From a virus (lineage: Duplodnaviria > Caudoviricetes), in IMG/VR virus record IMGVR_UViG_3300031627_000003, positions 1 through 36,544 of that record: a stretch of DNA of 36,544 nucleotides. One strand, 5' to 3'. Both the position numbers and the translations under genes were made by a program. The notes below the pieces were generated by a model that was given only the letters and a program-made list of their open reading frames with translations, was not told the DNA's origin and did not search any database. Positions 1,888-36,544 of the stretch are shown piece after piece. How positions within the stretch are numbered: the stretch's first letter is position 1; each line of letters opens with the position of its first letter.

Positions 1888-3642
1888 ATGCCGCTCTGGG
1901 ACAATAATAATCTCGACGACCAGCCAGTTTGGTCTGCTGCTGCTGACTTTCGCGGCGGTATGAACACGACGGTGCTCCCGCACGTTCTGACAGACAACCA
2001 GTATGCCAAGGGCATCAACACGACGCTGCTGAAGACCGGTCGCATCCGCACACGCGGCGGCATGGTCGCCAACGGCGTCATGGCATCCCCTGCGACGGTT
2101 CAGGGGATGGCCTATTACGAGACCGGCCCCGGCACAGAGGAGGTGCTAGTGGTGAACGACAACGAGCTCAAGGTCTGGAACAACTCGTCGTTCACAGCTG
2201 TGCCCGGCTACACGCTTACCGGGCGCGTCTCGGCGTTCCAAGCACAGCGACACGCGCTTTTCTTCAGTGACACTGCTGCAATGTATTACGACGGCACGAC
2301 TGTCCGCGCAATCAACCACGCCACAATCCCCGTGGTTTTGGTTACCGGCTCAGGCTACGTCGTAGGCGACCTCTTAACGCTGACCGGCGGAACACCGGAG
2401 ATCGATGCAGTTGCCCGTGTCGCGACTATCGGCGCCAGTGGTGAGGTCTTGACGGTGGACTGGGGAACTGGGGCCACCCGTGGCCGGGGCTACACTGCTG
2501 CCCCCTCGGGATACACCGGCGGCTCTGGGACTCTTGCGACGTTCACCTACGCGTTGACAACCCCGCCGGCCGGCAACATTGCAACGTGGCATACCGAACG
2601 TGTGTTCCTAGCCGGCGTGGCTGCTGATAGGGACACGCTTTACGTGTCGGACATCCTCGAGCTGGACAGATTTCCGACGCTCAGCACGGTCACCATTGGG
2701 AGCGACGGCGAGGCAATTACTGGCATTCACAGCTGGGACAATTTTAGCTTGCTGGTCTTTAAGGCGAACTCAACCTACACCGTATCGACGGACCCCCGCG
2801 CTGAGGTAGTTGACTGGGCGGTGTCCAAGATCAGTTCTACAGTTGGATCGGTATCGCACTGGGCGACGATGCAGGTCGGCGCAGACGTGTGGTGGCTGTC
2901 GAGGGACGGCGTGCAGTCTGTCCGACGCATGATCCAAGAGACCCAGAGGGAGATCTCTGGTTCAGTGTCGGTGCAGGTTCAGAGCTACATTGACGACGTC
3001 AACTGGGCGCAGGTCCACAAGGCGTCCATGGGCTACTTCGACAACAAACTTTTCCTGTCGTTCGCGTCAGGTACGTCAACCGACAACAACACCCTGCTGG
3101 TTTTTGACACATACCACCAAGTCTGGAGCAGCGAGTGGACTGGGCCGAATGTGTCCCTGATGGTTCGCTCAAAGTTCAGGAATGAGCAGAGGCTCCACTT
3201 TGGAACAGATGACGGCTTGATCCGAACCTACGTCGACAGCAGCGAGGTGGACACCGATGAGCTGGCGGCAACAACTGACATCCCAACCGAGCTCTGGTTC
3301 CGGTCGTTCAGCTTCGGGGAGCCGGTCTCTCCGAAGTCCCTGCTGAATATCGAGCTGGAGTTCACGGACTCAACGGCTACGCTAGACTTATCGCTGTCAG
3401 CCGAAGGTACGCCGTTTGAAACCGTCGCCGCAGGCTTAGCGTCCTCGGTCGCTCTGCTGCTGCTGCCGTTCGACCTCCCGGCAAGTCTGAGCGACGGTGG
3501 GCACTACCGGCGGGCCTACAATTTGCTCAAGTATCGTCAGGTCAGCGAGGCGCAACCGAAGGTCACAGCCGCCGCTGGCCGTGTCTCGCTCAGGGCACTG
3601 GTGATGTCAGCGTTTATTGAACCGATGCGGATTGACTACTAA
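1888..3642 (+). CDS. Tail nozzle / head-closure beta-propeller protein (P22 gp10 / T7 gp12-like)
   Basis: 584 aa with DFRGGMN..RIRTRGG at the N-terminus, beta-rich repeats (LYVSD, GEAITG, LLVFK, VGSVS, VWWLSRDGV), and a position upstream of the ejection proteins. Confidence 0.75.
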   Translation: MPLWDNNNLDDQPVWSAAADFRGGMNTTVLPHVLTDNQYAKGINTTLLKTGRIRTRGGMVANGVMASPATVQGMAYYETGPGTEEVLVVNDNELKVWNNSSFTAVPGYTLTGRVSAFQAQRHALFFSDTAAMYYDGTTVRAINHATIPVVLVTGSGYVVGDLLTLTGGTPEIDAVARVATIGASGEVLTVDWGTGATRGRGYTAAPSGYTGGSGTLATFTYALTTPPAGNIATWHTERVFLAGVAADRDTLYVSDILELDRFPTLSTVTIGSDGEAITGIHSWDNFSLLVFKANSTYTVSTDPRAEVVDWAVSKISSTVGSVSHWATMQVGADVWWLSRDGVQSVRRMIQETQREISGSVSVQVQSYIDDVNWAQVHKASMGYFDNKLFLSFASGTSTDNNTLLVFDTYHQVWSSEWTGPNVSLMVRSKFRNEQRLHFGTDDGLIRTYVDSSEVDTDELAATTDIPTELWFRSFSFGEPVSPKSLLNIELEFTDSTATLDLSLSAEGTPFETVAAGLASSVALLLLPFDLPASLSDGGHYRRAYNLLKYRQVSEAQPKVTAAAGRVSLRALVMSAFIEPMRIDY

Positions 3643-4053
3643 ATGGACCAGATCGCTCCAGTCGCGCAGCTCATACGAGAGAACATCTCGAGCTTTTCGA
3701 CGTGGAGCGACCTTGCGTTAGCGTCATGGGTCGGTTTTGCTATTGCCCGCCGCCGAATGGTAAGCGTCTACAGCTCGGATCGCACCATTGTTGGCGTTGG
3801 GGCTGCTCGGTGCGTGTCGGACACCACTGACGTTGATGACTGGTATGCCCACGATGAGCTCGGGGATACGATTTTCATCGACCTCGTTGTTGGGCCGCGA
3901 GTGATGCCGGTCCTTTGGCAGGCGATGAAGCAGCGATACGGAAAGCGCAAGCTCGTCTCGTTTGACCGTGCGGATCGTGAAGGTCGGCGGACATTCCAAT
4001 TTGATAGACTCGAAACTAGATTGAACCATGGCAAAGAACCCACCACCGCCTGA
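3643..4053 (+). CDS. Small virion-assembly protein, possibly GNAT-fold (T7 gp13 / P22 gp14 position)
   Basis: 136 aa between the nozzle and the first ejection protein, with a GDTIFIDLVV strand. The call rests mostly on synteny. Confidence 0.5.
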   Translation: MDQIAPVAQLIRENISSFSTWSDLALASWVGFAIARRRMVSVYSSDRTIVGVGAARCVSDTTDVDDWYAHDELGDTIFIDLVVGPRVMPVLWQAMKQRYGKRKLVSFDRADREGRRTFQFDRLETRLNHGKEPTTA

Positions 4054-5038
4054 AGCCCCCGACTACGCGGCGGCAAACCGTGAGGGCATCCTCACTGACA
4101 TTGAGACCCTTCCGGTCCGCCGGCAGCTTGACGTTGCGTCACGCCTCGGCCAGAAGGGTTCCTTCGAGCTGGACGGCGAGACCTTCGAGTATGACTTCAC
4201 CGGTCTCGGGGATGCCGACGTGAACCGAGCACAGTTGTCAACCAACCGTGAGTCAGCGTTCGGACAGGCTCAAGACTTCCTCGACATCCAGAGCGAGTTT
4301 GGGCAGCAGTTTCTGGACACGTCCCGTGAGCAGCTGAAGGCGTCGGACCCCATTGGCTTTGCGCTCCGCGAAAAACTTGGCGGGGACGTTACCAGTGAGC
4401 TCGCGGCCGGTCGCGGTCTGTCCGGTGACCAGCTTCGTTCGGTCCAGCAGTCCACTCGAGCGTCGCAGACTGCCCGAGGGAACATCAATGGACTAGCGCC
4501 AGCGGTGCAGGAAGCTCTTTCCACCTCCCAGTTCTCTGACCAGCGTTTCCAGCAGCGTCAACAGAACGCCGCAGCGTTCCTGTCAGGCACGACCCCGCTG
4601 TCGCAGTTTGGGCAGCTGCGTCAGGCCGGTGCCGGTGCCGCTCCGTTCCAAGCACTGGCAGGAAACGCAGTCGGACTCGACCGCAACGCTGGCGCGGCAG
4701 CTGCCGCGTTCTCGCAGCAGTCCTTTGGTACCAATTCCCAGAACTACGCCACGCAGTCAGCACAGACGAGCCCGTGGATGGAGGGTCTCGGCATGGTAAC
4801 TGGCGCGGCAACCTCTCTCGGTTCCGCTGCGCTCATTGGCTGCTGGGTCGCTCGCGAGGTCTACGGCAACGACAACCCGAAGTGGAAGCAGTTCCGCGAG
4901 TGGGTAGCGACAGAGGCCAGCGACGACTTCCGCGAGTTCTACATCGCGAACGGCGAGAAGCTCGCTGAGTCAATCAAGGACAAGCCCGAGGTGAAGGCAC
5001 ACATCCGCAAGTGGATGGACACGAAGATCAAGGATTAA
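4028..5038 (+). CDS. Ejection/pilot protein with C-terminal CWVAREVYG (CFI-box-CTERM-like) domain
   Basis: PPPPEAPDY N-terminus, a Gln/Ala-rich helical body, a Gly/Ala hydrophobic segment, then GCWVAREVYG..KWKQFREW..FY..NGE from 4838. Confidence 0.7.
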   Translation: MAKNPPPPEAPDYAAANREGILTDIETLPVRRQLDVASRLGQKGSFELDGETFEYDFTGLGDADVNRAQLSTNRESAFGQAQDFLDIQSEFGQQFLDTSREQLKASDPIGFALREKLGGDVTSELAAGRGLSGDQLRSVQQSTRASQTARGNINGLAPAVQEALSTSQFSDQRFQQRQQNAAAFLSGTTPLSQFGQLRQAGAGAAPFQALAGNAVGLDRNAGAAAAAFSQQSFGTNSQNYATQSAQTSPWMEGLGMVTGAATSLGSAALIGCWVAREVYGNDNPKWKQFREWVATEASDDFREFYIANGEKLAESIKDKPEVKAHIRKWMDTKIKD

Positions 5039-5042
5039 AAAT

Positions 5043-6386
5043 ATGGCAAGCGATCTACTCAACGGGTTCCAAGCTGGTATGCAGATGGGACAGCCCTTCA
5101 TCGAAGCGGCGATGCGGAAGAAGTCACTCGAGCGCGAAGAGGCACGTCATGCCGGCGACCGAGCCTACCTTGCTCAGTCTCAGAATGCCGACCGTTCTTT
5201 GAAGGCGCGCATGGCTGCGGACGGAATCGAGGCAGCAGATGAAATATCTCAGCGACGCGAGAAAGGGCTGGATGCGCGTGCCAAAGCCTCGCTCCTTGCC
5301 GCAGTCAACGCGAGTCGGGCGACGGAGATGGGTAATGCTGCTCGGGCCAAGACTGAGGCCGCCCAAAAAGCCGACACAGCATTAGCCAAGAAGCTATCGG
5401 GAGACGCGGACCGAGATTCCAGAGAAGGCATAGAGAAGGCAAGGGTTGATGCGGCCAAGCCCATGACAATCCGCGACAACCAAGTCGATGCAATGACAGC
5501 CCAGATCACAGAAGAGTGGGACATTGTGCAGGCACTGGAAAACCCTGATATTGACCGCATTGCACGCCCCGGCTACAAGCAAGGGCTACAGGCAAGGCTG
5601 AAGGCAATTAGAACGCTGGACGAGATGACGGCAAAAGCGGCGGACATGGCTATTAACAATGGCAGCATGAGCGAACTAGAGAAGGTGACGGACTCTAGGT
5701 TCAAGGCGCTGCCCGTGGCAGAGAGCTGGTCTGCGGTCAAGCTCACTGAGATATACAACGATGACGGGACTAAGATCAGCGGATACACGATGGTCAACCA
5801 GCGGACCGGAGAGAGCAAGCCGCTGTCACCTAGCGCGGGTCAACGCTTACTCGACACCGGAGACGGCGTGCTTGACGGCGCTAGCAACGGCGGCGGCGGC
5901 GGCGGCGGTGTCCCAGAAGTGCCTGCTATTGACAACGCCGGGGGACTTTCTGTCACGGCTGACAGCCTTGCCGCCACAGCTGAAAGGTACGCTGGAGCGG
6001 CGTTTGTGGTTCCTGCCAGCTCAGGCTCCGGTCAGCTCGGTTCCGCAGCCGAGGTAGCTGGAGCTGTTCCGGCGGCAGCTGTTCCGGCGGCAGCTGTTCC
6101 GGCTGGAGCCCAAGTCAACTCACTTGGCCGTCGCTTTCTCAACGCTTCGCTGGGGTCCGGTAAACTGATCGGCACTACAGCAGGCTCGGTCGCGGCGTCT
6201 CGCAGGGACGGCCAGTCCACGGGTTCTGGCGTCGACACGATCACGCCCCGAGTTCGGGAGCTTCAGATGATGATTGAACAGATGCGGCAAGATCGTGGCG
6301 TTGCGCCGGGCAAGGTTCTGAAGCCTACCCAGATGCCAAGGAAGATGCGGGATGCGGTTCTTGAATTGCAGAGTTTGACGAGGTAA
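5043..6386 (+). CDS. Internal virion (ejection) protein
   Basis: 447 aa with an NGFQAGMQMG N-terminus, an Ala/Arg/Glu coiled-coil and a low-complexity Gly/Ala C-half. Lies between the pilot and giant ejection genes. Confidence 0.65.
   Translation: MASDLLNGFQAGMQMGQPFIEAAMRKKSLEREEARHAGDRAYLAQSQNADRSLKARMAADGIEAADEISQRREKGLDARAKASLLAAVNASRATEMGNAARAKTEAAQKADTALAKKLSGDADRDSREGIEKARVDAAKPMTIRDNQVDAMTAQITEEWDIVQALENPDIDRIARPGYKQGLQARLKAIRTLDEMTAKAADMAINNGSMSELEKVTDSRFKALPVAESWSAVKLTEIYNDDGTKISGYTMVNQRTGESKPLSPSAGQRLLDTGDGVLDGASNGGGGGGGVPEVPAIDNAGGLSVTADSLAATAERYAGAAFVVPASSGSGQLGSAAEVAGAVPAAAVPAAAVPAGAQVNSLGRRFLNASLGSGKLIGTTAGSVAASRRDGQSTGSGVDTITPRVRELQMMIEQMRQDRGVAPGKVLKPTQMPRKMRDAVLELQSLTR
6063..6103 (+). 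repeat. 15-bp coding tandem repeat (gctgttccggcggca, about 2.7 copies; AVPAA)
   Basis: Read directly. A (ggc)n poly-Gly run also lies at about 5889-5909 in the same gene. Confidence 0.95.
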
Positions 6387-6388
6387 TT

Positions 6389-9300
6389 ATGGGCGAAACT
6401 GGACTTCATCAGCGGTGGCAAGCGGTGCAGAGACACCCCAACTGGCCGAACCTGTCCCCCGAGGAGCAGACCCAGCGGCTCGACGCGTTTGTGGGCGACC
6501 TGCGTGCCAAGTTTGGGCACAAGGTGACGGGGCTTCAGGGCTTCCACAACAACGTCCGCGCACGCATCAACTCTGCACCCGAGGAGACTCGGTTTCTAGG
6601 CGACGCAGTCAACGCGTTCGGTGATGACTACCTGAGAGCACGGCAGGCTACTACCATCCGACCGAATGAGCTTCGCCGGATTCTCAAGTCGGAATACATC
6701 GCACAAGTCGAGGCCAACGGCTCCGACGCTTACGGAATGGCGGGAGGACTGGCGGGCGGCGTAGCTGCTACGATGTCCAAGGCTCTCCCGGCGGCTGGTG
6801 CAGGCTTCCTAATCGGCGGCCCGCCGGGTGCCGGGGTTGGGTTCCTTGGAGGCTCCCTTGTATCGGACGTCCCGACGCAGGTCGGGCACAGTCTCCGCTC
6901 TAACTTTTTCTCGCAACTAGACGAGGGCATTGATGAGGACGAGGCTTGGAGCCAGTCCGCCAAAGCCGCAGGCATTTCAGGTGTGCTGACCGGTGCGGCA
7001 AACGTCATCCCCGGCGGTGCGTTCGTCAAGCTCGGCACCAAGCTGGTCCCCGGCAAAGGCAAGGTCGCGCTTGCCGCGAAGAAGGTAATGCTAGCCGGAA
7101 GCTCTACCCGAGGCGGGAAGCGGCTTGCCGTTCAGGCTATCCAAGGTGGCGTAGATGACGTTGTGCTTGAAGGCGTCAATGTCGGACAGGAGCTAGCTTT
7201 CGGAATTGACGCCAGCAACTACCGGGGCACGCTTGGAGAGCGTGTAGCAATTGCCGGTGCAGCCGGCACGGCGTTGCGCGGCACGTTCCTTGGAGTCCAG
7301 AAGGGCGCCACGGGCATACAGAACGTAAGGGCTGGCAAGAAGTTTGGCGACCGGCTGTTCCACAATGAGAACGTCGAGGCTGTCCTTGGCGGTCTTGATA
7401 ACCAGATTCTGGAAGCCCAGCACGGTGTCCGACGCAGAGAGGGTGGTGAGGATCTTGAAGCCGCGCAGCAGTTGGAAGGCAGCGGGCTGTTCGGCCAGCG
7501 GACCCGCTCTGAAAAACTCAGGGCTCTGAAGGCGAACAAGGAACTTCTGTTGAACGTGTGGGACACGATCACCGATGGCACTATGCCTCTGGATCTTGAA
7601 GTCCTTGCGAAGGAGGGTAGCGACGGGCAGGACGCGCAGTTCAACCCGGCGTCCAACTCGATCTCTGCGTTCCTCAGTATCTTTGAGTGGAAGGGCGACG
7701 CTATCCAGCGCATTACGCTGAACCATGAGGCGGCTCACGCTCACCTCCGCACGCTTCCTCCGCGCATCCGAGAGAAGCTGCGAGATCTGAAGACAGCTGA
7801 GTTCGCCGAGAGAGCTGGCCCGCTATTCGACGCCGATGGCAACCCACGCAAGAACATCTCCAAGGATCTGTTCTCGACGGACCCTGAGCGTCAGTTCAAC
7901 GAGTGGTATGCTGAACGTGTGTCGCTCCGCAACGACGCGTGGGCGAAGGGCAGGCTCAGTGATGCTGAAGCCAACCCCATTGAGGGCTGGATGGGCAATC
8001 TGGCAAGGGACTTCCGAGTCAAGGGCGAGAAGGTCGGCCGAAGCCTCGGCTTTGTCGACGGGCTGGACGCGTCCTTCCGCGACTTTCTTGATGCTGGCAA
8101 GAAGTATGAGTTCGACCGTGAGACTCGGACAACCGCAGGGGATCTCGAAGCCGAGATCAACGTGCGCGAGGCGCGGCTGGAGCAGGCATCCGCTCAGGGG
8201 GATACTAAGCTAGTCAGGAAACTTCAAAAAGAGATCTCCGAGCGGACCGCGAAACGTCAACGTCGACTCCTGCCTGAAACCGTCGACACAATCTTTTTCG
8301 GCAAGGGCGACACGGGCAGTCGCGGCCTTGACGACGCCATCAGCCAGACTATTGACCGAAATACTCGGGGACGCGCTGGTGTTCCAGAGCCTGAAGCTGA
8401 CCTCAACAAGCTGGGTCAGCTGGGTCAGCTTGATCCGGCAGCCCGTGAAGCCGTTGTCGGTCCCATTGAGCGGATCAAGGCTGAGGCAGCAGCGCGATCT
8501 GCTCTTGAAAGTGAGCAAGCTGGCGGCGTCCGACACCGGGCGGACATCCGAGAAGCTCAGCGAACTGAGTTTGATGCGCCAGTCAAGCGGCCGGTTCAGA
8601 CCCGAGAGACCCCGCTTGTCGGTCGTGACCGCGAAGTCACGCAAGCTCCCGATTTAGAACTCCCCGGCCAGCGGCCGGGTCAGCACTCAGTTGAGCCTGA
8701 CCTCAGTGCGATAGCGCAGCTCACTGGGCGGCAACGCCCAAACCGAAACCCAGACCGTGGACGTGTTGACCCCGAAGGCGGTCGCACTAGTCGCGGCTTT
8801 TTGGGTCGAGCTGAATTTGACGAGGCTCAGGGTGGCACCGCCACGGCATCCAAATCCGAGCCGAGTGTCAGGACACCGGGCCAGCTGGTGGCCGCCGCTC
8901 AGCGGGCAACTCCGAGCGATCAGTCCACCAAACAGGGCGACTTTGGTTTCGGTGACGAGGGCGGACGGCTTTCTGAACCGCCGACCGCGCCACACCAACC
9001 GCCGGTGGAGTCCAAGTCCAAGTTCTACGACCCAGACAGCGCGGACAGCAAGGCTCGCGTCAAAGCTAGCATCGACAAGCAGGAAGCTGTTCTCAAAAAG
9101 CTAGCCGGCAGGGTCGACGACGCGATCACAAATCTGGCTGAACCGGCGCAGCTACACCGCCTCGCCAAGCAGGCGCAGGAGAATAGCTTCATCTCCAAGG
9201 ATGACGTGAAGGAGCTGCGCCGAATCCAGCGCGAGGTAGGGAACAAGGAAGACACTAGCGACGCGCTTGATGAGCTGCGGTTCATGCTTGAGGACGCGCA

Positions 9301-12300
9301 AGACTTTTACGATAAGTTCAACCGGGGTGAAGGCACCGTTGAGCACGCTATCACCACGCGGGAAGAACGGAATCCCAGCCGTGGTCGTCCGCCGCAGGAC
9401 ACCGAGGCTGGGTCGGACGCCACACCGGCCCAGCCTCAACCTGTTGACCCCGACGCCCCGCTCTTCTCTCGCCGAGGCGAGCGCGGTAACGACCCAAACC
9501 GCGCTCTGGTCGATCAGGAGCTGACGCTGTCTGGCAAATACAAGGTTGTCGCCGGTCAGACACTCCCGACCGCGCCGCCACGGGATGCCGGGACGTCGCT
9601 TGAGGAACAGATTGCCACCGGGGAGGCTGGGCACACTAGCTACGAGAACTACCTGAAGCAGGAGAGCGCAGCTCTCAACGCAAACTTGATCAAGGACTGG
9701 TCAATCATGCGGAACTTCAAGGGCGGCAGTGTCCGACAGACTTACGACGAGCTGATTCGACTGGTGAAAGGCAACCTGCTCGCGCTCCATGACGGCATGG
9801 ACTCGACGCTGCGTGCCCGCGCCAAACTCTGGTATGAGGGCGCGAACCGCATCGCGCAGGACTTTTCTGCGCGATACAAGGTGACGCTTGAGCAGGCCAG
9901 CGCGACGATGGCTGTCCTGTCGCCACAGAAGGACTGGTTCCAGAACGTGTCACTCGCCGGCCGGGTGCTGGACATCTGGGGCACCAAGCAGAACGCCTCG
10001 GTCACGCCCGAGATGGCAAAGATGCTGGTTGAGGACATCGCACTCCGAAAGACTAAGGAGCAGAAGAACATGAGCACTCAGCGAGAGGTGCTTGCGGATC
10101 GGAAGGAACGCGTGATTGAAGCCAAGCAATGGGTTCAACTCTACTCGGGCAAGACCCTAGCCGACATCACTGACGACCATCACCGTGCGATGTTTGTGCG
10201 GATGTGGGACGAGGCGCACAACCCCCGTTCCTACGCCGTGCTCACACCGGAGGGTGACCGTGTCCGACTCCAAACCAACAAGGACGGGTCGAACTCGGGT
10301 ATTGGGTGGGGCTCCTACGCTGAGATCAACAAGGCGATCAAGGCGTCTCAGGGCGACACGATGACCATCCACATGATGCTGGGCGACCAGCACAAGGTCC
10401 GCAACTTCTACAACAACATCGCTGACCCGACTAACCCCGACCACGTCACGATGGACACGCACGCCATTGCGGCCGGGCTGTTCCTACCGCTGGCGGGAAG
10501 CAGTGGTGAGGTCGCCAACAACTTTGGTTCGAGCGGGAAGGACCAGCCGGAATTCAAGAACTCCAACCGTGGCGCGAAGCTCCACGGTCAGCAGGGGATC
10601 TACGCTGTGTTCGCTGAAGCCTACCGGCAGGCAGCCAAGGATCGTGGTCTCCTTGCCCGCGAGATGCAGTCGATCACTTGGGAGCAGATCCGCACGCTGA
10701 TGTCGGACAGCCAGAAGCGTCAGCTGGCCGGTCCTGCTAAGCTCCGAAAGAGCTTGGTGACCGGCGTGGAGACGATGGCGCTCGTTCCGCTGCGAGACCC
10801 TACTGAAAAACCATTGCCAGCCGCACGAAAAGTGTGGAAGAATACACCTAACGATGAAACAGCACGCCAAATTATCACTGAAGGCTTTGGAGGGTTTAGC
10901 CTCCCAGATTGGGCCCCATCAAGCTATGGCTCAAGCCGTGTTAAACCGGGTGAGGCTGCGGCGACCGGTGCCGAAAGCGTTATCGTTGGAGGAGATGATT
11001 CCACTGGTGTACGAACAAGGCGCCGACGTGGAAGCCCTCAAGTCCGATTTCCCCGAGCAGCTGACCTCGAGTCTCTAGTACAGCAGCGCGGTGAGGCTGC
11101 GAAGTTCGACGAGTTCATTGACCGGGGCGGACAGTTCAGCCGACGCGGAGGCGACGTGGAATACCAGCAGCTGGTCGATGCCGGGGACACTGCTGGGGCG
11201 CAGCAAGCCGTGGACGCTGCCGCGAAAGCAGCAGGATTCGACCCAACCCCGGCCTTCCACCGGACTTGGGGTGAGTTCCGCAAGTTCGCGGCTGGGGGAG
11301 AAGAGCCGAGGCAGCAGTCGTGGCCTGACGGCGACGGCGGGACGCACACGCTAGTCGGCCCATCCGGTCGTGCCGTCTTCCTATCCTACGACGCCGAGAA
11401 CACCCCAGCTTTTCACAACTCCAAGCCGACAGGTCAGCGAATTCTGCGCGTTTACGCGAAGCAGAAAAACCCACTCGTAGTGGATATGGACACCAAAGCG
11501 TGGGCGACCGACGTGTTCGCGGGAGGGCACCGGGAGTTCCCGCAGCTCATCACCGAGGGAGCACGACAGAATTTGCTGGCGGAAGGTCACGACGCGATTC
11601 AATTCTATCAAGGCGAGCGCACCCCGGCCGACGGGCTCCCCGACGAGCTGATCGTGTTCAACCCGAGCCACATCAAGTCCGCCGACCCGGTGACACGCGA
11701 TGCCGCTGGCGTCGTCGTCCCGCTCTCGAGACGGTTTAGCACCGCGTCGGACGACATCAACTTCAGCCGACGCGGAGGCCGCGAGGAAAATCGTCCGCTG
11801 ATCAATCAGGAGCTGGACCCTGACAGCGAGCTCCTCACCCGAAACTTTTCTGACCGAGCAGCGGGGTCGGACCCCGAGCTGGCCGCGATCCGAAGCAAGA
11901 ACCCCGACATCGCCTTTCGCGACACGCAGTCAATCAAGGACATCCAAGACGGGCACGCTGGTCGGACTGACGACGACCTTGACGCTAGTGTCACCCGACT
12001 TGAGACACTGCGTGAGGAGGGGCCGAAGAACACAGCGATCCTTGACGGCATGGAGCGGATGCGCCGAGCACAGGACGCCGGGGATTCCGTAGGAACGAAA
12101 CGGGTCTTCAGCGCACTGGCGAAAGCCGGGACTACCATTGGGCAGCTGCTTCGCCAGTTCCGAGAGTTCAAGGGAGCGGCTGCTACCACCCATCGGCTCG
12201 AGCTGATGGAGCTCCAGCTACTCAAGGACGGCCGCAAGATGACCCCGAAGCAGCGGGACGTGATGTCCCGGCTCATCAATGACGATGCCAAGGCCAAGGT

Positions 12301-23688: not shown

Positions 23689-23689
23689 G

Positions 23690-26709: not shown

Positions 26710-26789
26710 CTGGCGACCTTGGCACAGCCGGGGCAGCGGAGTCAAGGCCGCACGATGCAGCCCCCGAGTGTAGTGTGCAGGGTGCCGGA

Positions 26790-27180: not shown

Positions 27181-27181
27181 G

Positions 27182-27216: not shown

Positions 27217-27230
27217 GTAGTTTTGGGGGC

Positions 27231-27804: not shown

Positions 27805-27826
27805 AATTTTTTTGGGGATCAGTGAC

Positions 27827-28030: not shown

Positions 28031-28245
28031 GCTGTCGCCTCCTGTGCGCGCCGCTCCTGCATCGTGAGCCGCTCAGCCCCTCGCCGGTGATGGCGCGGGT
28101 TCCCGCAGCATTCACAGCTGCACGCAGCCGGTGACCTAGCTGCCTTGCCGATTGCTCGTGGGTCTCCAGCAGCATGTGGGTGCTGCCGGGCAGCGCGTGC
28201 TTTTGCAGCTGCGGAGCTGCGTCGTCGGTCGTTCTTGGTTTTCAT
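28027..28245 (-). CDS. Small basic Cys-cluster phage protein (CSC..CGNPR..LT.QERR type)
   Basis: CSCECCGNPRHH..LTMQERR, a motif I recognise from small uncharacterised phage proteins. A-rich leader. Confidence 0.7.
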   Translation of the reverse strand: MKTKNDRRRSSAAAKARAARQHPHAAGDPRAIGKAARSPAACSCECCGNPRHHRRGAERLTMQERRAQEATA

Positions 28246-28267
28246 AGAGTTTTTTGTGTTGGGAATT

Positions 28268-28287
28268 GGGGGAGGTTGCCCTCCCCC
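28268..28287 (-). promoter_or_regulatory. 8-bp GC hairpin with GCAA (GNRA) tetraloop and no U-tract
   Basis: The minus strand reads GGGGGAGG-GCAA-CCTCCCCC between the VWA gene and the next ORF. Confidence 0.6.
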
Positions 28288-28296
28288 GGTTGAGTC

Positions 28297-29880
28297 CTAT
28301 CGGACGATGTATTTGATCAGCGAAGTCGCGAGGTCAAACGCGCAGCGGTCGCTGAAGTAGCGCCCGAAATGCATCGACATACACTCATCGAGCACGCCCG
28401 ATGCGCTGCCGACATACGCGCCGACGACGTCGACGCCCTGACCGCGCAGCCGGTTGGTTTGCAGCTCGGCTTTGCCGAGGTTGCCGTCGGTGTAGATGAT
28501 GCAGCAGCGGCTCTGGTCAAGGTCGTGCCGGCATTCGGTCGTGCTCAGCGTCTCGTCCAGTCCTTCCCCACCGCCCTCCGAGCAGAGCCCGGCGAGGATG
28601 CCGTCAGGAATGGACGTGTCGAGTTTAGCGCGGCAGCTTGAGCCGCTGAGCCAGATGCGCACGTCGAGCACGCCCTTGCGATCCAGCCTCGCCAGCGCGA
28701 TCAGCAGCTCCTTCGCCGCTTTGAACGGGTCGCCGTCCATGCTGCCGCTGGTGTCGACGATGAAAGTCAGAGCCTTTCTGCCGTCCACTTTTATCTGCCG
28801 GCGAAACGCCGCCGCCGAGCCGCTGATAGCGTTGGGGATGTGGAGCCGGCTGCCGGTCATGCTGGCCTGCTGTGGCGCGTGCGCTGCCCGAGCCACCAAC
28901 CGACCCAGCTTGCCCGTCAGCTGGTCGACCACGCCCCAGTTGACGCGCTCATTGGAGCCGGGAAACAGCCGCCACCATGTCCTGAGCTCCGCTTTGATTT
29001 GCGAAAGGCTGCGCTCTGTGTCTTCTTTTATTTGCTCGGGATCGACTGCCGGCTTCTCCGTTTCATCCTCCTCTTCGGTCCCTATGCCTTCGCTCTCTGC
29101 TGCCGGGCAGAGCTCGCCGCCGAGCCACGGACTGAAGCCTCGCAGGTCTTGCCCCTCGGAGACAGGCGCCGGGAACTCCTTGACCCATGCCTCCAGCAGC
29201 GGCAGCAGTAGAGCCGTTGTCGGCATGTTGCAGGCTGCCCTGTAGAAGTATTGCACGCGCTTCTTGACGCGCTCAGATCCCAAGAACCGAGGCTGTCCGA
29301 CAGACGGCGATGAGTAGCTGCTGGCCTCCCGGTTAATGAGATTCCAGAAGAGGTTGCGCGGGCTCTCGGTCATTATGCAGGGCGTCCAACGCCACCAGCG
29401 AAACCTCTTGTAGCTGTTGCCATCTTTTGTGCGCTCACGCTCGAGATGCTCGATACGCGCATCTTCAAACAGGTTCCAGATGTCGAAGGGGATCTTCTTC
29501 TCACGCAGGCGGCGGGACATCTCGCGGGGCAAGATCTCTGTGTGTTCCCCGTGATTCGCCTCATGGCGAATGAGCGAGCAGGCGAACGCCAGCAGCTCCT
29601 TTTGGTCTTCTTGCAGCCTGCCCGGCAGGGGCTGGGCGAAGTCCAAGCCGACCTTTATGTCGTGGAATGCCGTAGAGAACGCCATCGAGCCGGTCGACCC
29701 GATAGACCAGCATGCCGTGTTGAGCCCCGGCTTCATTTCGAGATCCACCCGGTGAGCCCCGTGCTTGCCCAGCGTCGCCAGCCGGCGAACGATCCCTTGC
29801 TTCTGCTTAACGCCCTTGTTGCGCTTCGCGTTTCGCCACGCCTTCGTGATGATGAATTTGATGTCTGCTTCGTTTAACAT
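28297..29880 (-). CDS. VWA-domain protein with N-terminal zincin-like domain (CobT-like MoxR partner)
   Basis: HEANH..WNLFEDARIE, MIDAS DTSGS, and IIYTDG. Confidence 0.85.
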   Translation of the reverse strand: MLNEADIKFIITKAWRNAKRNKGVKQKQGIVRRLATLGKHGAHRVDLEMKPGLNTACWSIGSTGSMAFSTAFHDIKVGLDFAQPLPGRLQEDQKELLAFACSLIRHEANHGEHTEILPREMSRRLREKKIPFDIWNLFEDARIEHLERERTKDGNSYKRFRWWRWTPCIMTESPRNLFWNLINREASSYSSPSVGQPRFLGSERVKKRVQYFYRAACNMPTTALLLPLLEAWVKEFPAPVSEGQDLRGFSPWLGGELCPAAESEGIGTEEEDETEKPAVDPEQIKEDTERSLSQIKAELRTWWRLFPGSNERVNWGVVDQLTGKLGRLVARAAHAPQQASMTGSRLHIPNAISGSAAAFRRQIKVDGRKALTFIVDTSGSMDGDPFKAAKELLIALARLDRKGVLDVRIWLSGSSCRAKLDTSIPDGILAGLCSEGGGEGLDETLSTTECRHDLDQSRCCIIYTDGNLGKAELQTNRLRGQGVDVVGAYVGSASGVLDECMSMHFGRYFSDRCAFDLATSLIKYIVR

Positions 29881-29899
29881 ATTGGTATTGGTATTGGAA

Positions 29900-31324
29900 T
29901 TAAAGGCTGCGGAGGCTGTTCGTCCAAGCGGCCACCGTTTCCGCGCTGTGGGAATCAGTGTCGCCGAGGTCGCCGTCCCACAGCGCGGTGTTGTCCGACA
30001 GCCTCTTGGCTACCTGCTGGCCGACTGCCGCCTCCGTCGGATCGGCGGCGACCATCGCCGCACGCTCCAACATGCGGAAGTCGATGGGCATCGCCGTCGT
30101 GCCCTTCTTGACTGACTGTCTGCTGTCAGACATCACATTGGCAAACTTTGTCGCCAGCCGGCCGCGAGCGCAGTCGATGCCTTTGGCCTTCAGGATGCTG
30201 GTGGCGGTCGCCGCAGCGTCGGTCTTGTTGAACTCTATGCGGAGGGTCTCCCAGCGGCTCCAGAACGCCTGCACGGGCATGGTCATGGTCAGATTGGTCG
30301 CGGCGACGAAGTGCAGGTTCTCACACTTGCATTCGATCACCTCGAGGTTGCCGCGAACCTCACCAGTCGATTGGACGATGTGCCGGGTTCGCAGACGATA
30401 CACGCGCCCGGCTTCAGTCTCTACCCCTGTCAGGATCGTGAGCAACCAGCTCTGGACGACCTCGGGCAGCCGCAGCACCTCGTCGAGCAGCAGCAGCACC
30501 TTCTGGCCTTCGCTGGCCCGTCGGAATGCCTGAGCCAACACGCCGTCGAAGACGACGAACGCGCCTTTGCTATCCGGCGTAGGGTTGCCGAGCAGTGTGC
30601 TCATCTCATCCATGTCTGTGCTGCAACCGTGCTCGAAGTAGGCGTCGTAGGATGTGCCCAGCTTCCGAATGGTGTAGGACTTGCCAAAGCTCGGAGGCGA
30701 GCACACCAAGAAGTTGCTGCCGCAGTCGACGCCCGGCCGATAGTAGGGCGCCAGCTCGGCCATGATCTTGTTGCCGCCCGCAATCGCTGCCAGCACCGGT
30801 GTGCGCGGGCTGGCGTTGACCTTGCCATCAGCCGCCATGGCATCAATTACGGGCTGCACGGGGGCGAGGGCCACCGCCAGCCGCGCATCGACGGTGGCCT
30901 GCACGTCGACCTCGGAAGCATCGAAGACCTCGGCGCAGATCTCCGCGACAGCGTCGCGGTCCAGCCCCGGCTTGTGCTGGGCGAGCTGGGCTTGAATCAC
31001 CGACGCCAGCGCACCCTCGAGACCGCCTGCGGCCGGTGCGGGGATCTCTGGGGCAGCCGCAGAGTTATCGTGCGGCCCGGCGTGGATGAAGACGCCGCCC
31101 TTTGCGCTGATCGCCGACTGGGCCAAGACCAGCTCAGCATCGCTGGTGTCGTTCAAGACGTCGTGCATCTGTCCGACCGTCATGCCGTTCACGACGTCCG
31201 TCTGGACACCGGCGGCCTTGAGCCAGTCGCGCACGGACTTTTTTTGCATTCCGTCACGGCTGGCCGTGAATATGATGTGGCCGCGAGCGGCTCCCAATAG
31301 TGTCTCAAGTTGCTCTGTTTTCAT
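29900..31324 (-). CDS. MoxR/CbbQ/CobS-like AAA+ ATPase
   Basis: Walker A SPPSFGKS, Walker B LLLLDE, sensor-1 AATN, AFWSRW, DFRML. Adjacent to the VWA gene. Confidence 0.85.
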   Translation of the reverse strand: MKTEQLETLLGAARGHIIFTASRDGMQKKSVRDWLKAAGVQTDVVNGMTVGQMHDVLNDTSDAELVLAQSAISAKGGVFIHAGPHDNSAAAPEIPAPAAGGLEGALASVIQAQLAQHKPGLDRDAVAEICAEVFDASEVDVQATVDARLAVALAPVQPVIDAMAADGKVNASPRTPVLAAIAGGNKIMAELAPYYRPGVDCGSNFLVCSPPSFGKSYTIRKLGTSYDAYFEHGCSTDMDEMSTLLGNPTPDSKGAFVVFDGVLAQAFRRASEGQKVLLLLDEVLRLPEVVQSWLLTILTGVETEAGRVYRLRTRHIVQSTGEVRGNLEVIECKCENLHFVAATNLTMTMPVQAFWSRWETLRIEFNKTDAAATATSILKAKGIDCARGRLATKFANVMSDSRQSVKKGTTAMPIDFRMLERAAMVAADPTEAAVGQQVAKRLSDNTALWDGDLGDTDSHSAETVAAWTNSLRSL

Positions 31325-31469
31325 GTGTTCTATTTGCTTGTTTTCGTTTCAGTTTGTTGCGTTAGCCCCGCCGGGACAGGTGTTGTCGCCAATACACTAC
31401 AAAGACGCAAGGAGTTTCGTTGCCTAATTTCGCCGCTCGACCGCCCGCTGGCAACGCCTACGCTGGGAG

Positions 31470-32036
31470 GTGATGACTGCCCCAATCAAGACCAAGGTCC
31501 GCGCTGCGCGTCGGACACCAGTGCGTAAGCTGGGCAAGGAGCCGAAGACTAAACGCAAAACGCTCGCCGACGTCCGCACCGCGCTCACCGATCCCGGTGT
31601 CGGACACCGGGCCGCTGGCCGTCCGCTGCGTCCGTTCGACCCAGCCGTCGCCGACGACATCGTTGCCCGGCTGCATCTCGGGCTCCCGCTCAAGACAGCC
31701 GCAGCCGGCAGGGCCAGCTATGATGTGCTGCTCCGCTGGATGGGGGATGAAGAGCATTTCGCTGTCGCCCTTCAAAAAGGCGAGGCGGATGAGCAGCTGC
31801 GCTTGCTCCAGTCGATGGAGACCGCCCCCGCTGGCCGGTGGCAGGTCTTCGCGTGGAAGTTGGAGCGCATGTGGCCTCATCTGTATGGGCAGAAGGCCGA
31901 GCTGCGCGTTGAAAAGGTCCACAAACATGAGGTCAACGCTGAGATGTGCGATGAGATCGGGGCCAGCTTCGCCGCATTCATGCTGGCACAGCAGGCGATC
32001 CCCCCCGCGCAGCCGACACCCCTGATTGATGCGTGA
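31470..32036 (+). CDS. terS: Terminase small subunit
   Basis: HTH-like segment (IVARLHLG..AAA..LLRW), WQVFAWKLERMWP motif, and position upstream of terL. Start 31470 or 31473. Confidence 0.7.
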   Translation: MMTAPIKTKVRAARRTPVRKLGKEPKTKRKTLADVRTALTDPGVGHRAAGRPLRPFDPAVADDIVARLHLGLPLKTAAAGRASYDVLLRWMGDEEHFAVALQKGEADEQLRLLQSMETAPAGRWQVFAWKLERMWPHLYGQKAELRVEKVHKHEVNAEMCDEIGASFAAFMLAQQAIPPAQPTPLIDA

Positions 32037-32281: not shown

Positions 32282-33745
32282 ATGGACCCAAAAATTACGG
32301 CTGAAAAATCACAGGCAAAATCTACGGAGGCTGTCTCATCGCTTGCCAGTGACCCCATGCTGGCGAAAGGCACACCCATCTGGTTTGCCAGAGAGATACT
32401 CAAGATCGAGCTTTACCCGTGGCAGGAGCGGGTGCTCTGGGATCTGGCGGTCGGCACCAAGCCGGTGTTTATGAAGGCTGCCAATGGGTCAGGCAAGACT
32501 CAGGGCATAGCTACAATCGCGCTCCTGTGGCACGCTGCGACGTTTAGGAACAGCCAAGGGCTGACCACGGCCGGCGTCTACCGGCAGGTCAAGGAGCAGC
32601 TCTGGGGGAACCTGCGAACGCACGCAGCGCGGCTTGGGCCCAAGTGGCAGTTCAACGCTACGGACTTGCACGCGCCCAACGGAAGCAAAGCTCTGGGGTT
32701 CTCAACGGATGACCCGCACAAGTTCGAGGGCTGGCATAACAACAACCAGCTGATCATTCTGGATGAGGCCAAGTCGATCCCCGACGAGATCTGGGAAGCG
32801 GTGCAGCGGTGCAACGTACCTGAGAACAATGTAGGCGGGAGGCTGCGCGTGCTGGTGATGTCGTCAACCGGAGGCACTGAAGGGTTCTTTCCACTGGCGT
32901 TCACCAAGCGTCGCAAGTTCTTTTCATGCCACTCAGTTACAGCGTATGACTGCCCGCACCTGTCCGACAAGTGGGTCAACGAGCAGATCGAGATGTGGGG
33001 GCGGAACCACCCGCTCATACGCTCCATGATTTTCTCAGAATTTGTGGACAGCGGCGGCAGCCAGTATGTGTGTAGCCCCGTTCACTGGACAAACTGCATG
33101 GACAACCCCCCGGTGCATGAGGACGGTGCGCCCTTGGCGTTCATTGACTGGGCGGCTGGCGGGGACGAGAACGTGATTGCAGTCGTGAAGGGCAACAAAG
33201 TCACCGACGTCATCTGCTGGCGGGACAAGAACACAATGATGGCAGCAAACCGGGCAGCGATTGAGCTGACCAAGTTGGGCGTGCCTGTCGGTCGGACGTT
33301 TGCGGATGACGGTGGACTCGGGCACCCCATCAACGACGCGATGGAGATGGGCGGCTTCCAGATCCGCCGGGTGCTCAACAACATGAAGCCCACCCAACCG
33401 GACCACTACGCCAACCTTGGGGCTGAGCTGTGGTATATCGCGGCCCGTGCCATCGAGAAGCGCGAGATCATACTGCCGAAGGACGATGTGCTGATGGAGC
33501 AGGCCACCACGCGGAGGTCTTCACTCACGCCGGTCGGCAAGCTGGCTCTCGAGAAGAAGGACGACATGCGACGCCGGGGTGTCTCAAGTCCTGACCGGGC
33601 CGACGCGGTCCTGTCCGCGATTGCTATTGCCAAGACTATTGGCAACCAATACGATGTGAGCGTTGACAGCCAGTTCGACGGTCTCACGGATACTCAGCTA
33701 GGCAGCATGGAAGACGACCACCACGGCATGTTCTCAGGATTATGA
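32282..33745 (+). CDS. terL: Terminase large subunit
   Basis: LYPWQ, Walker A AANGSGKT, Walker B IILDEA, SST, nuclease FIDWAAGGD and SPDRADA. Likely start ATG 32282. Confidence 0.93.
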   Translation: MDPKITAEKSQAKSTEAVSSLASDPMLAKGTPIWFAREILKIELYPWQERVLWDLAVGTKPVFMKAANGSGKTQGIATIALLWHAATFRNSQGLTTAGVYRQVKEQLWGNLRTHAARLGPKWQFNATDLHAPNGSKALGFSTDDPHKFEGWHNNNQLIILDEAKSIPDEIWEAVQRCNVPENNVGGRLRVLVMSSTGGTEGFFPLAFTKRRKFFSCHSVTAYDCPHLSDKWVNEQIEMWGRNHPLIRSMIFSEFVDSGGSQYVCSPVHWTNCMDNPPVHEDGAPLAFIDWAAGGDENVIAVVKGNKVTDVICWRDKNTMMAANRAAIELTKLGVPVGRTFADDGGLGHPINDAMEMGGFQIRRVLNNMKPTQPDHYANLGAELWYIAARAIEKREIILPKDDVLMEQATTRRSSLTPVGKLALEKKDDMRRRGVSSPDRADAVLSAIAIAKTIGNQYDVSVDSQFDGLTDTQLGSMEDDHHGMFSGL

Positions 33746-34729: not shown

Positions 34730-36544
34730 TCCACAACCCCGAAACGACCGGAACCCAGACCGTCTCTGAGGGAGACCTTGACCCTATCGAGGTGATCCGA
34801 GCTGAGGTTGACGCAGCACTCTCAGCCCGTGGGGTGTGGGAGGAGCGACAGACGATGTGGTATAAGCTGCGCCACTCAGGGCTGAAGCGACCCCGAAAGC
34901 CGTTCCCCGGCGCAGCCGACATGACGTGGCCGTTGTCGGACATGATGATCGAGAAGCTGAAGCCATTCTACATTCAGCAGACGTTTGCGAACGAGCTGGT
35001 TGCCAATTTCTACTCCCTGCGAAGCTCACAGCAGGAATTCAACACCGCAGCTGCCCAGTGGTTCGACTACAAGCTGCGGCAGTTCACCAATTTCGAGAAC
35101 GAGATCGTCAGCGTTGCGGACTACATGCTCATGGGTGGCAAGGGCATCATCAAGATCCGGTGGGACGAGAACAAGAAGGAGGTCGCGTTTGACTCGGTTG
35201 ACCCGATGATGCTCATCGTGCCGTCCGACACCGTCGATTTGCAGGACGCTGACTGGGTGATTCAGGTTCACCAGATCAGCGAGGCTGCCTACCGGCGGAA
35301 CAAGCAATACAATCAGGCCATCCTCGATCAGGTCGTTTCTATGAATGGCGCAGAGGCCGAACGCCTACGTGATTCTGAGAAGATGGTCCGCGAAGGCATC
35401 ACGCACACGGCCACGGCTGGGAAGGTCGTGCTCTGGGAGTGCTACAAGAAGCTCGACGACGGCACCATCGAGGTCTGTGTCTTTGCACCGACGCTCCCTG
35501 AGCAGTTCATTGTTGAACCCAGCAAGAAGCTGCACGGGCCAAAGGTCCACCCGTTTGTAGAATACAACTCGGAGATCAAGGACAAGGGCTACTACGCCAG
35601 CCGGGGTCTACCTGAGCGCGTGGCTTCCATGCAAATGTCCATGAGCAAGCTCTGGAACGAGAAGCTCGACGCCATCACGGTGTTCAACCGCCCGATTTTC
35701 ACCAGTGACAACCCGATGGTGAACGCGGGGAACATTCGCATGAACCCCGGCGACATCATCCCCTTCCCCGTTAAGAAGATTCCGATGGACACTCCCCCGA
35801 TCAACTGGGATCTGGAGATCAACCAGCACCGCATGACTGCGGAGCAGCTGGTGGGCGTGCCGGATGCCGGCCTGACGCAAGCGTCAAGCAGTGAGCGGCG
35901 CACAGCGAGTGAGGTAAACCTGATCGGGTCACTCATGTCACAGGTAGTCGATCTCAGAAGCCGTGTGTTCCGCAAGGCACTGGCTGAGACATTCCGTCAG
36001 GCGTGGACCGTTATGATGGCCGAGTCTTCCGAGGACTTGGGGTTCTTCTTCCGAAACGATTTGATGGCGCTGCCCCCTGCGGCAATCCATGAGGAGTATC
36101 GCATTGAACCGCTGGCGAGCGCGGACAACCTGAACACGCAGTTCGTTTATCGCAAGAAGCTCGAGCGGTTCCAGCTGTTGCAGGGCAACCCGCACGTCAA
36201 CCAAATGAACCTCACCCGCGACCTGATTGCAGCCGGCGACCCACAGGACGTGAAGTCACTGATGATGGACGACAGCACGCAGGCAGCTGACCACGCGGAA
36301 GACCAAGCTACCGAAATCAACCGGATGCTCATCGGTTTCCCGTCGCAGATCAAGCCGGTCGATGACGATGCTGTCCATCTGGCGATCATCAAGGGCTTTG
36401 TGGAGCGGAGGGTCACGATGGACGAGGAGCTGACGCCCGAACTGGCGACGCTCCTTATGAACCACAGCAACATGCACTTCCGGCAGCTCCAGCAGAAAGA
36501 TCCCGACAGGGCTGGTGAGATGGAACCCGAGCTCCAGAAGATGG
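34726..36544 (+). CDS. Portal protein (3'-truncated; absent from ORF track)
   Basis: ATG 34726 (ATGA overlap). The frame appears open to the window end (606 codons or more; spot-checked by hand). Contains KPFPGAAD, GKGIIKIRWD and RTASEV, and follows the terminase. Confidence 0.85.
   Translation, partial: MIHNPETTGTQTVSEGDLDPIEVIRAEVDAALSARGVWEERQTMWYKLRHSGLKRPRKPFPGAADMTWPLSDMMIEKLKPFYIQQTFANELVANFYSLRSSQQEFNTAAAQWFDYKLRQFTNFENEIVSVADYMLMGGKGIIKIRWDENKKEVAFDSVDPMMLIVPSDTVDLQDADWVIQVHQISEAAYRRNKQYNQAILDQVVSMNGAEAERLRDSEKMVREGITHTATAGKVVLWECYKKLDDGTIEVCVFAPTLPEQFIVEPSKKLHGPKVHPFVEYNSEIKDKGYYASRGLPERVASMQMSMSKLWNEKLDAITVFNRPIFTSDNPMVNAGNIRMNPGDIIPFPVKKIPMDTPPINWDLEINQHRMTAEQLVGVPDAGLTQASSSERRTASEVNLIGSLMSQVVDLRSRVFRKALAETFRQAWTVMMAESSEDLGFFFRNDLMALPPAAIHEEYRIEPLASADNLNTQFVYRKKLERFQLLQGNPHVNQMNLTRDLIAAGDPQDVKSLMMDDSTQAADHAEDQATEINRMLIGFPSQIKPVDDDAVHLAIIKGFVERRVTMDEELTPELATLLMNHSNMHFRQLQQKDPDRAGEMEPELQKM

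What the first reader, a model, noticed from the sequence alone, without database searches (positions are those of the whole stretch)
2645..34942. Genome-wide highly iterated palindrome TGTC(C/G)GACA embedded in coding sequence
I count at least 19 exact copies by eye, starting at 2645, 3815, 7180, 9730, 10701, 12828, 15746, 18891, 19595, 22661, 23703, 24007, 24761, 26921, 29294, 29992, 31598, 32961 and 34934. One-mismatch copies also occur (e.g. 24251, 26223, 30124). A rough base-composition estimate at about 60% GC predicts around 0.3 copies. The motif falls in genes on both strands and in all three frames (VSD at 2644, VGQ at 7181, VRQ at 9731, CPT at 19595), so amino-acid preference does not explain it. 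Eight copies extend to palindromes of 11 bp or more, mostly GTGTCSGACAC, and one reaches 19 bp (31593-31611). Average spacing is about 2 kb. I infer a DNA-level signal for a dimeric protein: a host nucleoid, segregation or methylation mark analogous to HIP1, matS or SlmA sites, a distributed phage repressor/stoperator site, or a self-recognition tag. I know of no description of this motif.
Basis: partly seen in the sequence, partly recalled or inferred. Interest (0 to 1): 0.85.

Follow-up and report, generated by a model that had tools for sequence, protein, structure and literature searches.

The report
Private palindrome code across phage genes
An uncultured marine phage carries the same nine-letter DNA palindrome about every 2 kb inside its genes, its relatives carry their own sister words at different places, and the word is likely a landing site for one of the phage's own replication proteins, most likely its primase.

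Summary
Confirmed: 19 exact TGTCSGACA (0.47 expected), 18 inside genes, against 1.6-2.1 under synonymous-codon shuffles; the proteins are also bent to fit it. The window is a temperate phage, host probably Verrucomicrobiota. It is not a host HIP1: no sampled genome of that phylum (401) or order (351) comes within ten-fold of the phage's density. Five syntenic relative lineages each carry a sister word with TGTC/GACA arms (centres W, AST, CGA, CG/half-site, or spacers 1-3 mixed) at non-homologous positions, without strand polarity. A sixth, distant phage has TTCTAGAA 35 times. All word-positive phages share a Zn-finger RepB'-like primase plus their own PolA, but also an SNF2-type helicase and an integrase; phages with that primase but no PolA, or PolA with another primase, lack a word. 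Best reading (0.4): distributed priming sites; close rival (0.3): another phage DNA-binding protein. No repressor is conserved, so stoperators are unlikely. No binding was measured. Closest precedent: Cluster O mycobacteriophage dyad repeats. This scan has reported similar genome-wide phage words, some read as primase sites, on other DNA.

The parts
2645..2653 (.). TGTCSGACA site in tail gene 1888-3642
3815..3823 (.). site in gene 3643-4053 (11-bp palindrome)
7180..7188 (.). site in 2677-aa virion gene
9730..9738 (.). site in 2677-aa virion gene
10701..10709 (.). site in 2677-aa virion gene
12828..12836 (.). site in 2677-aa virion gene (13-bp palindrome)
15746..15754 (.). site in D5-like helicase gene
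18891..18899 (.). site in PolA gene (13-bp palindrome)
19595..19603 (.). site in PolA gene; gives Cys where 5 of 6 relatives have Asp
22661..22669 (.). site in SNF2-type helicase gene
23703..23711 (.). site in gene 23690-24157
24007..24015 (.). site in gene 23690-24157
24761..24769 (.). site in Holliday-junction resolvase gene
26921..26929 (.). the only intergenic site, upstream of the integrase
29294..29302 (.). site in vWA-domain gene
29992..30000 (.). site in AAA ATPase gene
31598..31606 (.). site in terminase small subunit gene (19-bp palindrome 31593-31611)
32961..32969 (.). site in terminase large subunit gene, at a conserved peptide
34934..34942 (.). site in portal-like gene, at a conserved peptide
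2919..31517 (.). eight TGTCCGACG variants (2919, 7426, 17735, 20770, 21486, 24251, 26223, 31509), the commonest near-match
16643..17596 (-). candidate reader: AEP primase, RepB'-like catalytic domain with an N-terminal Cys/His (putative zinc) domain
   Evidence: fold Z 11.9, rmsd 3.1, 144 aligned to RepB' 3h20
17978..19741 (-). family A DNA polymerase; present in every word-positive phage
15324..16658 (-). D5-like helicase
22453..23688 (-). rival candidate reader: SNF2-type helicase, same distribution as the word
25576..26709 (-). rival candidate reader: tyrosine integrase, same distribution as the word among whole records except G766

Best explanation
The palindrome is a phage-private signal kept about every 2 kb regardless of gene, strand or position, and it is likely read by the phage's own primase, which would use it to start new DNA strands on either strand for the phage's own polymerase. 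Shown: enrichment, location in genes, amino-acid accommodation, sister words in relatives, absence of host-wide iteration in the genomes searched, an AEP primase of RepB'-like fold.
For: (1) Density, not position, is kept: 7 of 1026 cross-lineage site pairs fall within 2 alignment columns, and spacing is more even than random in the window (CV 0.54, P 0.003, largest gap 3365) and in G758 (CV 0.64, P 0.003). (2) Arms are constant and the centre loose: G407 has TGTC-N1, N2 and N3-GACA 13, 10 and 13 times against 0.8 each; G408 is enriched mainly for the half-site TGTCC, 224 against 99; TGTC itself is 1.13-1.62-fold enriched in 9 clade contigs against 1.06 in 76 distant terminase loci and 1.00 in 16 bacterial-genome loci. 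(3) Distribution: the word is present in the window clade and in G758, whose virion genes belong to another group; both have the Zn-finger AEP plus PolA. It is absent in 4 of 4 records with PolA and D5 but another primase N-terminus (G759-G762) and in 4 of 4 records with the Zn-finger AEP but no PolA (G763-G766). In the latter group 74 of 80 loci have a RepA-like helicase instead, and 44 of 54 readable ones share one conserved inverted-repeat core downstream of it, as expected of a single origin. (4) The closest solved fold is RepB', a primase with long specific sites (PMC8567376, passages); NrS-1 primase reads an 8-base word (PMC8718748, passages); T7 primase reads GTC through a zinc domain (PMC3610141, passage). 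(5) L127/L128 (3-base spacer) group with G406/G407 in the primase tree (support 0.875) but not in the D5 tree.
Against: The Zn-finger primase alone does not predict a word: 0 of 59 loci of 9 kb or more reach the threshold, so the reading needs two factors and was fitted after the fact. The SNF2-type helicase and the integrase track the word equally well with one factor, and SSB, exonuclease, SNF2 and virion-protein trees group the lineages as the primase tree does. No strand polarity (window TGTCCGA 19 top, 18 bottom; G408 TGTCC 104, 120), which simple lagging-strand priming would give. No pooled stem extension, against a hairpin. A single-strand reader has no need of a palindrome. The N-terminal domain did not match a known primase zinc domain (best Z 5.9, unrelated proteins). 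Even spacing weakens for wider site definitions (P 0.03-0.12) and in most relatives singly. Only 7 word-positive lineages, 6 of them one clade.
Confidence: 0.4

Rival explanations
1. Another phage-encoded protein binds the palindrome on double-stranded DNA along the whole genome (to organise, protect or tag it as self): the SNF2-type helicase, the integrase or excisionase, or a small fast-changing protein that sequence searches miss.
For: Dyad symmetry without polarity and independent flank preferences suit duplex reading. SNF2 helicase and integrase are in all word-positive and none of G759-G762. All clade genomes purge many restriction sites (CCWGG 0 of 80 expected in the window), so defence pressure is strong. 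The Cluster O authors suggest dimeric regulators for their repeats (PMC4351075 section 8).
Against: Spacers of 1, 2 and 3 in one genome and a half-site in another. The integrase region has its own clustered word, GGTGCCAC or GGTCCACC. G766 has a distant integrase and no word. The SNF2 protein shows only helicase-core families. Excisionase was not found in G758. The giant virion protein has a homologue in word-negative G765.
Confidence: 0.3
2. A host factor reads the word (a HIP1-, Chi- or nucleoid-type mark or a defence self-tag) and each phage lineage mimics its own host's version.
For: Lineage-specific words could follow host ranges; G177 has the same core in intergenic 9-base tandem repeats; an earlier scan note reports TGTC-N6-GACA across a myxobacterial genus (not tested).
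Against: No host-wide iteration in 401 phylum, 351 order and 31 family genomes, nor in the genome holding the closest integrase (12 per Mb). G177's repeats are tandem, intergenic and vary outside the core.
Confidence: 0.12
3. No reader: a phage replication or repair step writes the word into the genome (for example retained DNA primers or biased repair), and it accumulates nearly neutrally.
For: Sites turn over between lineages; there is a gradient of near-matches; RepB' makes DNA primers (PMC8567376).
Against: Even spacing in two unrelated phages; peptides compatible with the word are three-fold enriched (36 against 11.5), including a Cys at an otherwise Asp column of PolA.
Confidence: 0.1
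4. Distributed repressor operators (stoperators) that silence the prophage.
For: All word-positive records have an integrase; G406, G407 and G758 have ribbon-helix-helix genes.
Against: No such gene in the window, G408 or G409, and such genes also occur in word-negative G759 and L276 (about 6 kb of the window's genome is missing); sites are mid-gene and not oriented with transcription.
Confidence: 0.06
5. By-product of codon use or of restriction-site avoidance.
For: Avoidance is extreme and was not built into the nulls; two sites sit at conserved peptides.
Against: 18 observed against at most 7 in 2000 synonymous shuffles; the word recurs with constant arms in six lineages.
Confidence: 0.02

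Closest known systems
17-bp dyad repeats of Cluster O mycobacteriophages (TGTTCGG-N3-CCGAACA; PMC4351075, passages and section 8 read)
   Same: Phage-private palindrome spread over the genome, partly inside genes, no meaningful orientation, absent from the host, function unknown.
   Different: Here 9 bp, 18 of 19 inside genes (about a third there), positions not kept between lineages, the centre and spacer change between relatives, and the phage is temperate.
HIP1 of cyanobacteria (GCGATCGC; PMC5861425, abstract and outline read)
   Same: Short palindrome strongly over-represented in coding DNA, no peptide-level explanation, non-random spacing.
   Different: HIP1 is a host-chromosome feature; this word is not iterated in the host-phylum genomes searched; no methyltransferase was found in the window.
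RSF1010 RepB' with ssiA/ssiB (PMC8567376, passages)
   Same: The phage primase's catalytic domain has RepB' as its best structural match; RepB' reads long, structured sites on both strands.
   Different: RepB' uses two 40-nt hairpin sites at one origin and a C-terminal helix bundle; here there are many 7-11-bp sites and an N-terminal Cys/His domain.
Primase recognition sites of T7 gp4 (GTC; PMC3610141, passage) and NrS-1 prim-pol (TTTGGTTA, GTG; PMC8718748, passages)
   Same: Sequence-specific priming; each arm here contains GTC; an 8-base primase word has precedent.
   Different: T7 primase is a different fold; neither word is a palindrome, and the passages read report no genome-wide enrichment.
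Stoperators of Cluster A mycobacteriophages (as described in PMC4351075 discussion)
   Same: Many sites across a temperate phage genome.
   Different: Stoperators are asymmetric and oriented with transcription; these are symmetric and unoriented, and no conserved repressor was found.

Membership tests
HIP1-type host palindrome | hyper-abundant across the host chromosome | tested here: not met
   Top 40 per Mb of 401 phylum genomes against 520 in the phage; about 60 per Mb of 351 order genomes against 602; true host not identified.
HIP1-type host palindrome | over-represented in coding DNA beyond codon effects | tested here: met
HIP1-type host palindrome | site is methylated | not testable with these tools
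   only assembled contigs were available
matS / SlmA-type host nucleoid site | tens of copies confined to one chromosome domain, with a cognate host protein (recalled) | not tested
   only counts per genome were taken; host unknown
Cluster A stoperators | asymmetric and oriented with transcription | tested here: not met
   palindromic; sense and antisense both enriched
Cluster A stoperators | cognate repressor encoded by the phage | tested here: inconclusive
   none found in window, G408, G409 by Pfam, PHROGs or own HMM; about 6 kb of the genome is missing (42,512-bp contig on record)
Cluster O-type dyad repeats | dyad-symmetric, genome-wide, phage-private | tested here: met
Cluster O-type dyad repeats | 17-bp TGTTCGG-N3-CCGAACA sequence | tested here: not met
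   the word is TGTCSGACA
Cluster O-type dyad repeats | sites at similar positions among relatives | tested here: inconclusive
   not kept among relatives at 55-61% PolA identity; Cluster O members are far closer, and the one near-identical record L123 differs by 2 bases in 21.8 kb
RepB'/ssi priming system | AEP primase of RepB' fold | tested here: met
   Z 11.9, rmsd 3.1, 144 aligned; PF16793 on 47% of one Atlas cluster
RepB'/ssi priming system | one pair of 40-nt hairpin sites at the origin | tested here: not met
   19-46 short dispersed sites; no pooled stem extension
Primase recognition site (T7/NrS-1 type) | primer synthesis starts at the word | not testable with these tools
   needs an enzyme assay
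Primase recognition site (T7/NrS-1 type) | word co-occurs with the primase family | tested here: inconclusive
   present in 7 of 7 lineages with Zn-AEP plus PolA, absent in 59 of 59 Zn-AEP loci without PolA and 4 of 4 PolA records with another primase
Primase recognition site (T7/NrS-1 type) | known zinc-binding recognition fold | tested here: inconclusive
   invariant C32, H38, C59, H61, C64; no clear structural match

The most novel reading that the evidence does not exclude
A phage lineage writes a private priming address into its genes every 1-3 kb, read by a new Zn-finger RepB'-like primase, and rewrites dozens of coding sites each time the primase's specificity drifts, so that each lineage's replication machinery copies only its own genome.
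Probability: 0.35. Interest if true: 0.8.

Novelty: new variant of a known kind. Interest (0 to 1): 0.6.

Why it matters
Dispersed phage palindromes such as the Cluster O repeats have had no assigned function. Here a set of seven lineages with different words and a short list of three candidate proteins makes the question directly testable by swapping words and proteins in vitro.

Tried and rejected
Literature: the exact words appear in 5 unrelated papers only; searches (listings) gave no description of this motif or of genome-wide primase words in phages; the library lacks most subscription papers, and no supplements were opened. PMC9723563 (passages) held nothing relevant. Cultured relatives: PolA and terminase matches are at most 28% and 35%; primase, SNF2 helicase and D5 have no match. 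Same word in unrelated viruses: a paired-site scan gave 119 loci (80 with long flanks, scan stopped at 60 of 64 parts); of the 20 inspected, the multi-copy cases were coding repeats or local iteron-like arrays, none genome-wide. Host tandem repeats in G177 share the core but differ in form. Simple rule 'word follows the Zn-finger primase' rejected; power check: 16 of 22 20-kb slices of positive genomes pass -4 (one with an unrelated word, none of 4 from G407), 0 of 24 such loci of 17 kb or more do, but many of those loci are near-identical phages. 20 chromosomal D5 regions, 7 with the full primase, show no word, though diluted by host DNA. Virion and ejection proteins as reader: homologues in word-negative G765. 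D5 as reader: present in negatives, tree discordant. Hairpin: no pooled flank co-variation; the window alone gave P 0.01 at one position. Strain variation at sites: contigs from 4 runs over 17000-36544 showed only 40 of 256 differences, none in a site, uninformative. Prophage with this PolA: none in 31 family genomes. Third-position GC skew differs between the two gene blocks but is confounded with early versus late genes. L005 and L084 (terminase 57-59%) lack the word but cover no replication genes. No complex prediction was run: it cannot score DNA.
Full report
Observation. The 19 copies of TGTCSGACA are at the stated coordinates; shuffles give 0.47. Eight extend to 11 bp or more and one to 19 bp. 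The core GTCSGAC occurs 46 times and the wobble is lopsided, with TGTCCGACG the commonest variant (8 copies). Eighteen sites lie in genes, in all frames and on both strands; keeping every protein and permuting synonymous codons gives 1.6-2.1 sites, at most 7 in 2000. The proteins themselves offer 36 places compatible with the word against 11.5 in shuffled proteins (60 shuffles, largest 26), and half are filled. In PolA the word gives Cys where 5 of 6 relatives have Asp. Spacing of the exact 9-mers is more even than random (CV 0.54, P 0.003; largest gap 3365 bp), less so for wider definitions.

What the window is. It is a whole virus record encoding terminase, virion proteins, a 2677-aa protein, PolA, exonuclease, SNF2-type and D5-like helicases, resolvase, integrase and excisionase, and an AAA/vWA pair; the portal-like gene is named from position and homology to relatives, not from a family hit. 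A 42,512-bp contig with the same terminase is on record, so about 6 kb is missing. Seawater, marine and brine runs of three further studies hold 73-82% of its sampled words. 15 of 17 terminase relatives in named genomes are labelled Verrucomicrobiota or a subgroup; 52 of 401 genomes of that order hold a D5 relative; and G437 holds a lone integrase 51% identical to the window's with two TGTCCGACA in 1.1 kb (P about 9e-5 at that genome's rate). The host is therefore inferred to be a verrucomicrobium; it is not identified.

Not a host-wide mark. Among 401 phylum genomes the top density is 40 per Mb against 520 in the phage, and in that genome most of the inspected hits are intergenic 9-base tandem repeats. 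TGTC-N1-3-GACA reaches about 60 per Mb among 351 order genomes and 40 among 31 family genomes, against 602.

Relatives carry sister words. Syntenic phages with PolA 55-61% identical show: G409 GTCWGAC 40 times in 25 kb; G406 TGTC-N3-GACA 17 times, 10 as TGTCASTGACA; L127 and L128 GTCCGAGAC 9 times each; G408 and L003 TGTCCGG 57 and 13 times; G407 TGTC-N1, N2, N3-GACA 13, 10 and 13 times against 0.8 each. Sites are not at homologous positions: 7 of 1026 cross-lineage pairs coincide, about what a rough hand estimate of chance gives (no permutation was run). There is no polarity by genome strand or by transcription and no pooled co-variation of flanks. All these genomes purge many restriction sites, which may prune the allowed centres (inference). 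76 more distant terminase loci show no such word.

Which protein could read it. A scan with the primase alignment found G758, a complete 47-kb phage with unrelated virion genes and its own palindrome TTCTAGAA 35 times (control 1), evenly spaced. G758 shares with the window clade a primase with an N-terminal Cys/His domain, PolA, D5, SSB, exonuclease, an SNF2-type helicase and an integrase. G759-G762 have PolA, D5, SSB and exonuclease but another primase N-terminus, no SNF2 helicase and no integrase, and no strong word. A large group with the Zn-finger primase, a RepA-like helicase and window-like terminase and portal, but no PolA, has no word (0 of 59 loci of 9 kb or more out of 80 fetched; 0 of 4 whole records) and instead one conserved inverted repeat after the helicase. 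So the word goes with 'Zn-finger primase plus PolA', and equally with the SNF2 helicase or this integrase group. Virion proteins, D5, PolA, SSB and exonuclease occur in negatives. No repressor is conserved. A separate clustered word upstream of the integrase (GGTGCCAC or GGTCCACC) is the likelier origin or attachment signal.

The primase. Its model is confident (pLDDT 90) and residues 140-317 match RepB' of RSF1010 best (Z 11.9, rmsd 3.1, 144 aligned), then S-2L PrimPol. The N-terminal domain has five invariant Cys/His residues and no clear structural match. RepB' reads long structured sites and makes DNA primers (PMC8567376, passages); NrS-1 primase reads an 8-base word (PMC8718748, passages); T7 primase reads GTC through a zinc finger (PMC3610141, passage). 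A primase is the one conserved protein here whose job needs sites that are spread out but free in position. Against it stand the lack of polarity, the palindromy, and the need for a two-factor rule. I give it 0.4, another phage DNA-binding protein 0.3, a host factor 0.12, neutral drive 0.1, stoperators 0.06 and by-product 0.02. No binding or priming was measured.

Comparison and novelty. The closest described kind is the Cluster O dyad repeat (PMC4351075, section 8 and passages), also of unknown function; this case is shorter, almost wholly coding, and drifts between lineages. It works statistically like HIP1 (PMC5861425, abstract) but fails the host-chromosome test. It is not a stoperator by symmetry and orientation. 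The searches made found no paper with this word in this sense. Earlier notes of this scan report genome-wide words in other phages, several read as primase sites; they are unchecked and are not counted as support. My primase idea predates them (30%); they prompted the test of whether the word follows the primase, which failed in its simple form. Verdict: real, new variant of a known kind, interest 0.6.

Noticed in passing
window 26793-27612; G406 21909-22331; G407 1777-2089; G408 5800-6700; G409 17000-18150: Cluster of GGTGCCAC (window, G406, G407) or GGTCCACC (G408, G409) in both orientations upstream of the integrase; likely origin iterons or integrase arm sites.
   Followed up: partly
G758 (L355-L357), whole record: TTCTAGAA 35 times in 47 kb, evenly spaced, control 1.
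   Followed up: yes
window 24802-24839: 31-38 bases inside the resolvase gene match six order genomes at 92-97%; the four contexts read look like one conserved host helicase gene (priA by recall); not seen in relatives; chance or attachment core.
   Followed up: partly
G437:C66:17335-18465 (L433, L434): Lone integrase 51% identical to the window's with two TGTCCGACA, upstream of CRISPR-Cas-like genes and repeats; a tRNA-like 3' fragment precedes it by eye, ARAGORN called no gene.
   Followed up: partly
G177 (L101-L116): Intergenic 9-base tandem repeats with GTCCGAC core inside a larger repeated element with inverted flanks.
   Followed up: partly
window, whole: Extreme avoidance of restriction-type sites: CCWGG 0 of 80 expected and over 20 six-base palindromes absent; similar in all relatives.
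   Followed up: partly
L150 4405-4727, L164 10001-10323, L216 10001-10323, L208 10001-10457: TGTCSGACA as local iteron-like arrays in unrelated phages, inside one gene family or intergenic with about 32-base period.
   Followed up: no
L277 11954-12190 and related loci L275-L354: Conserved AT-rich tract and inverted repeat after the RepA-like helicase in 44 of 54 loci; probable single origin.
   Followed up: partly
L408-L412, L417, L418: Chromosomal elements with Zn-finger AEP plus D5 helicase and no PolA are common in this order; several have short repeats downstream of the helicase.
   Followed up: partly
window 23690-24157 (-): 155-aa protein that resembles an RNA polymerase alpha C-terminal domain by recall (no Pfam hit) and holds two sites.
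   Followed up: no
window 6389-14422 (+): 2677-aa virion protein with DUF7178 and a sub-threshold ART-PolyVal match; conserved C-terminal 900 residues.
   Followed up: partly
L194 (10.6 kb): GCCACCTAA 9 times, at least 150 bases apart, in an unrelated viral contig.
   Followed up: no
window 17267-17596 (-): Primase N-terminal Cys/His domain folds confidently (pLDDT 89) with only weak matches to KA1/TBP-like folds.
   Followed up: partly
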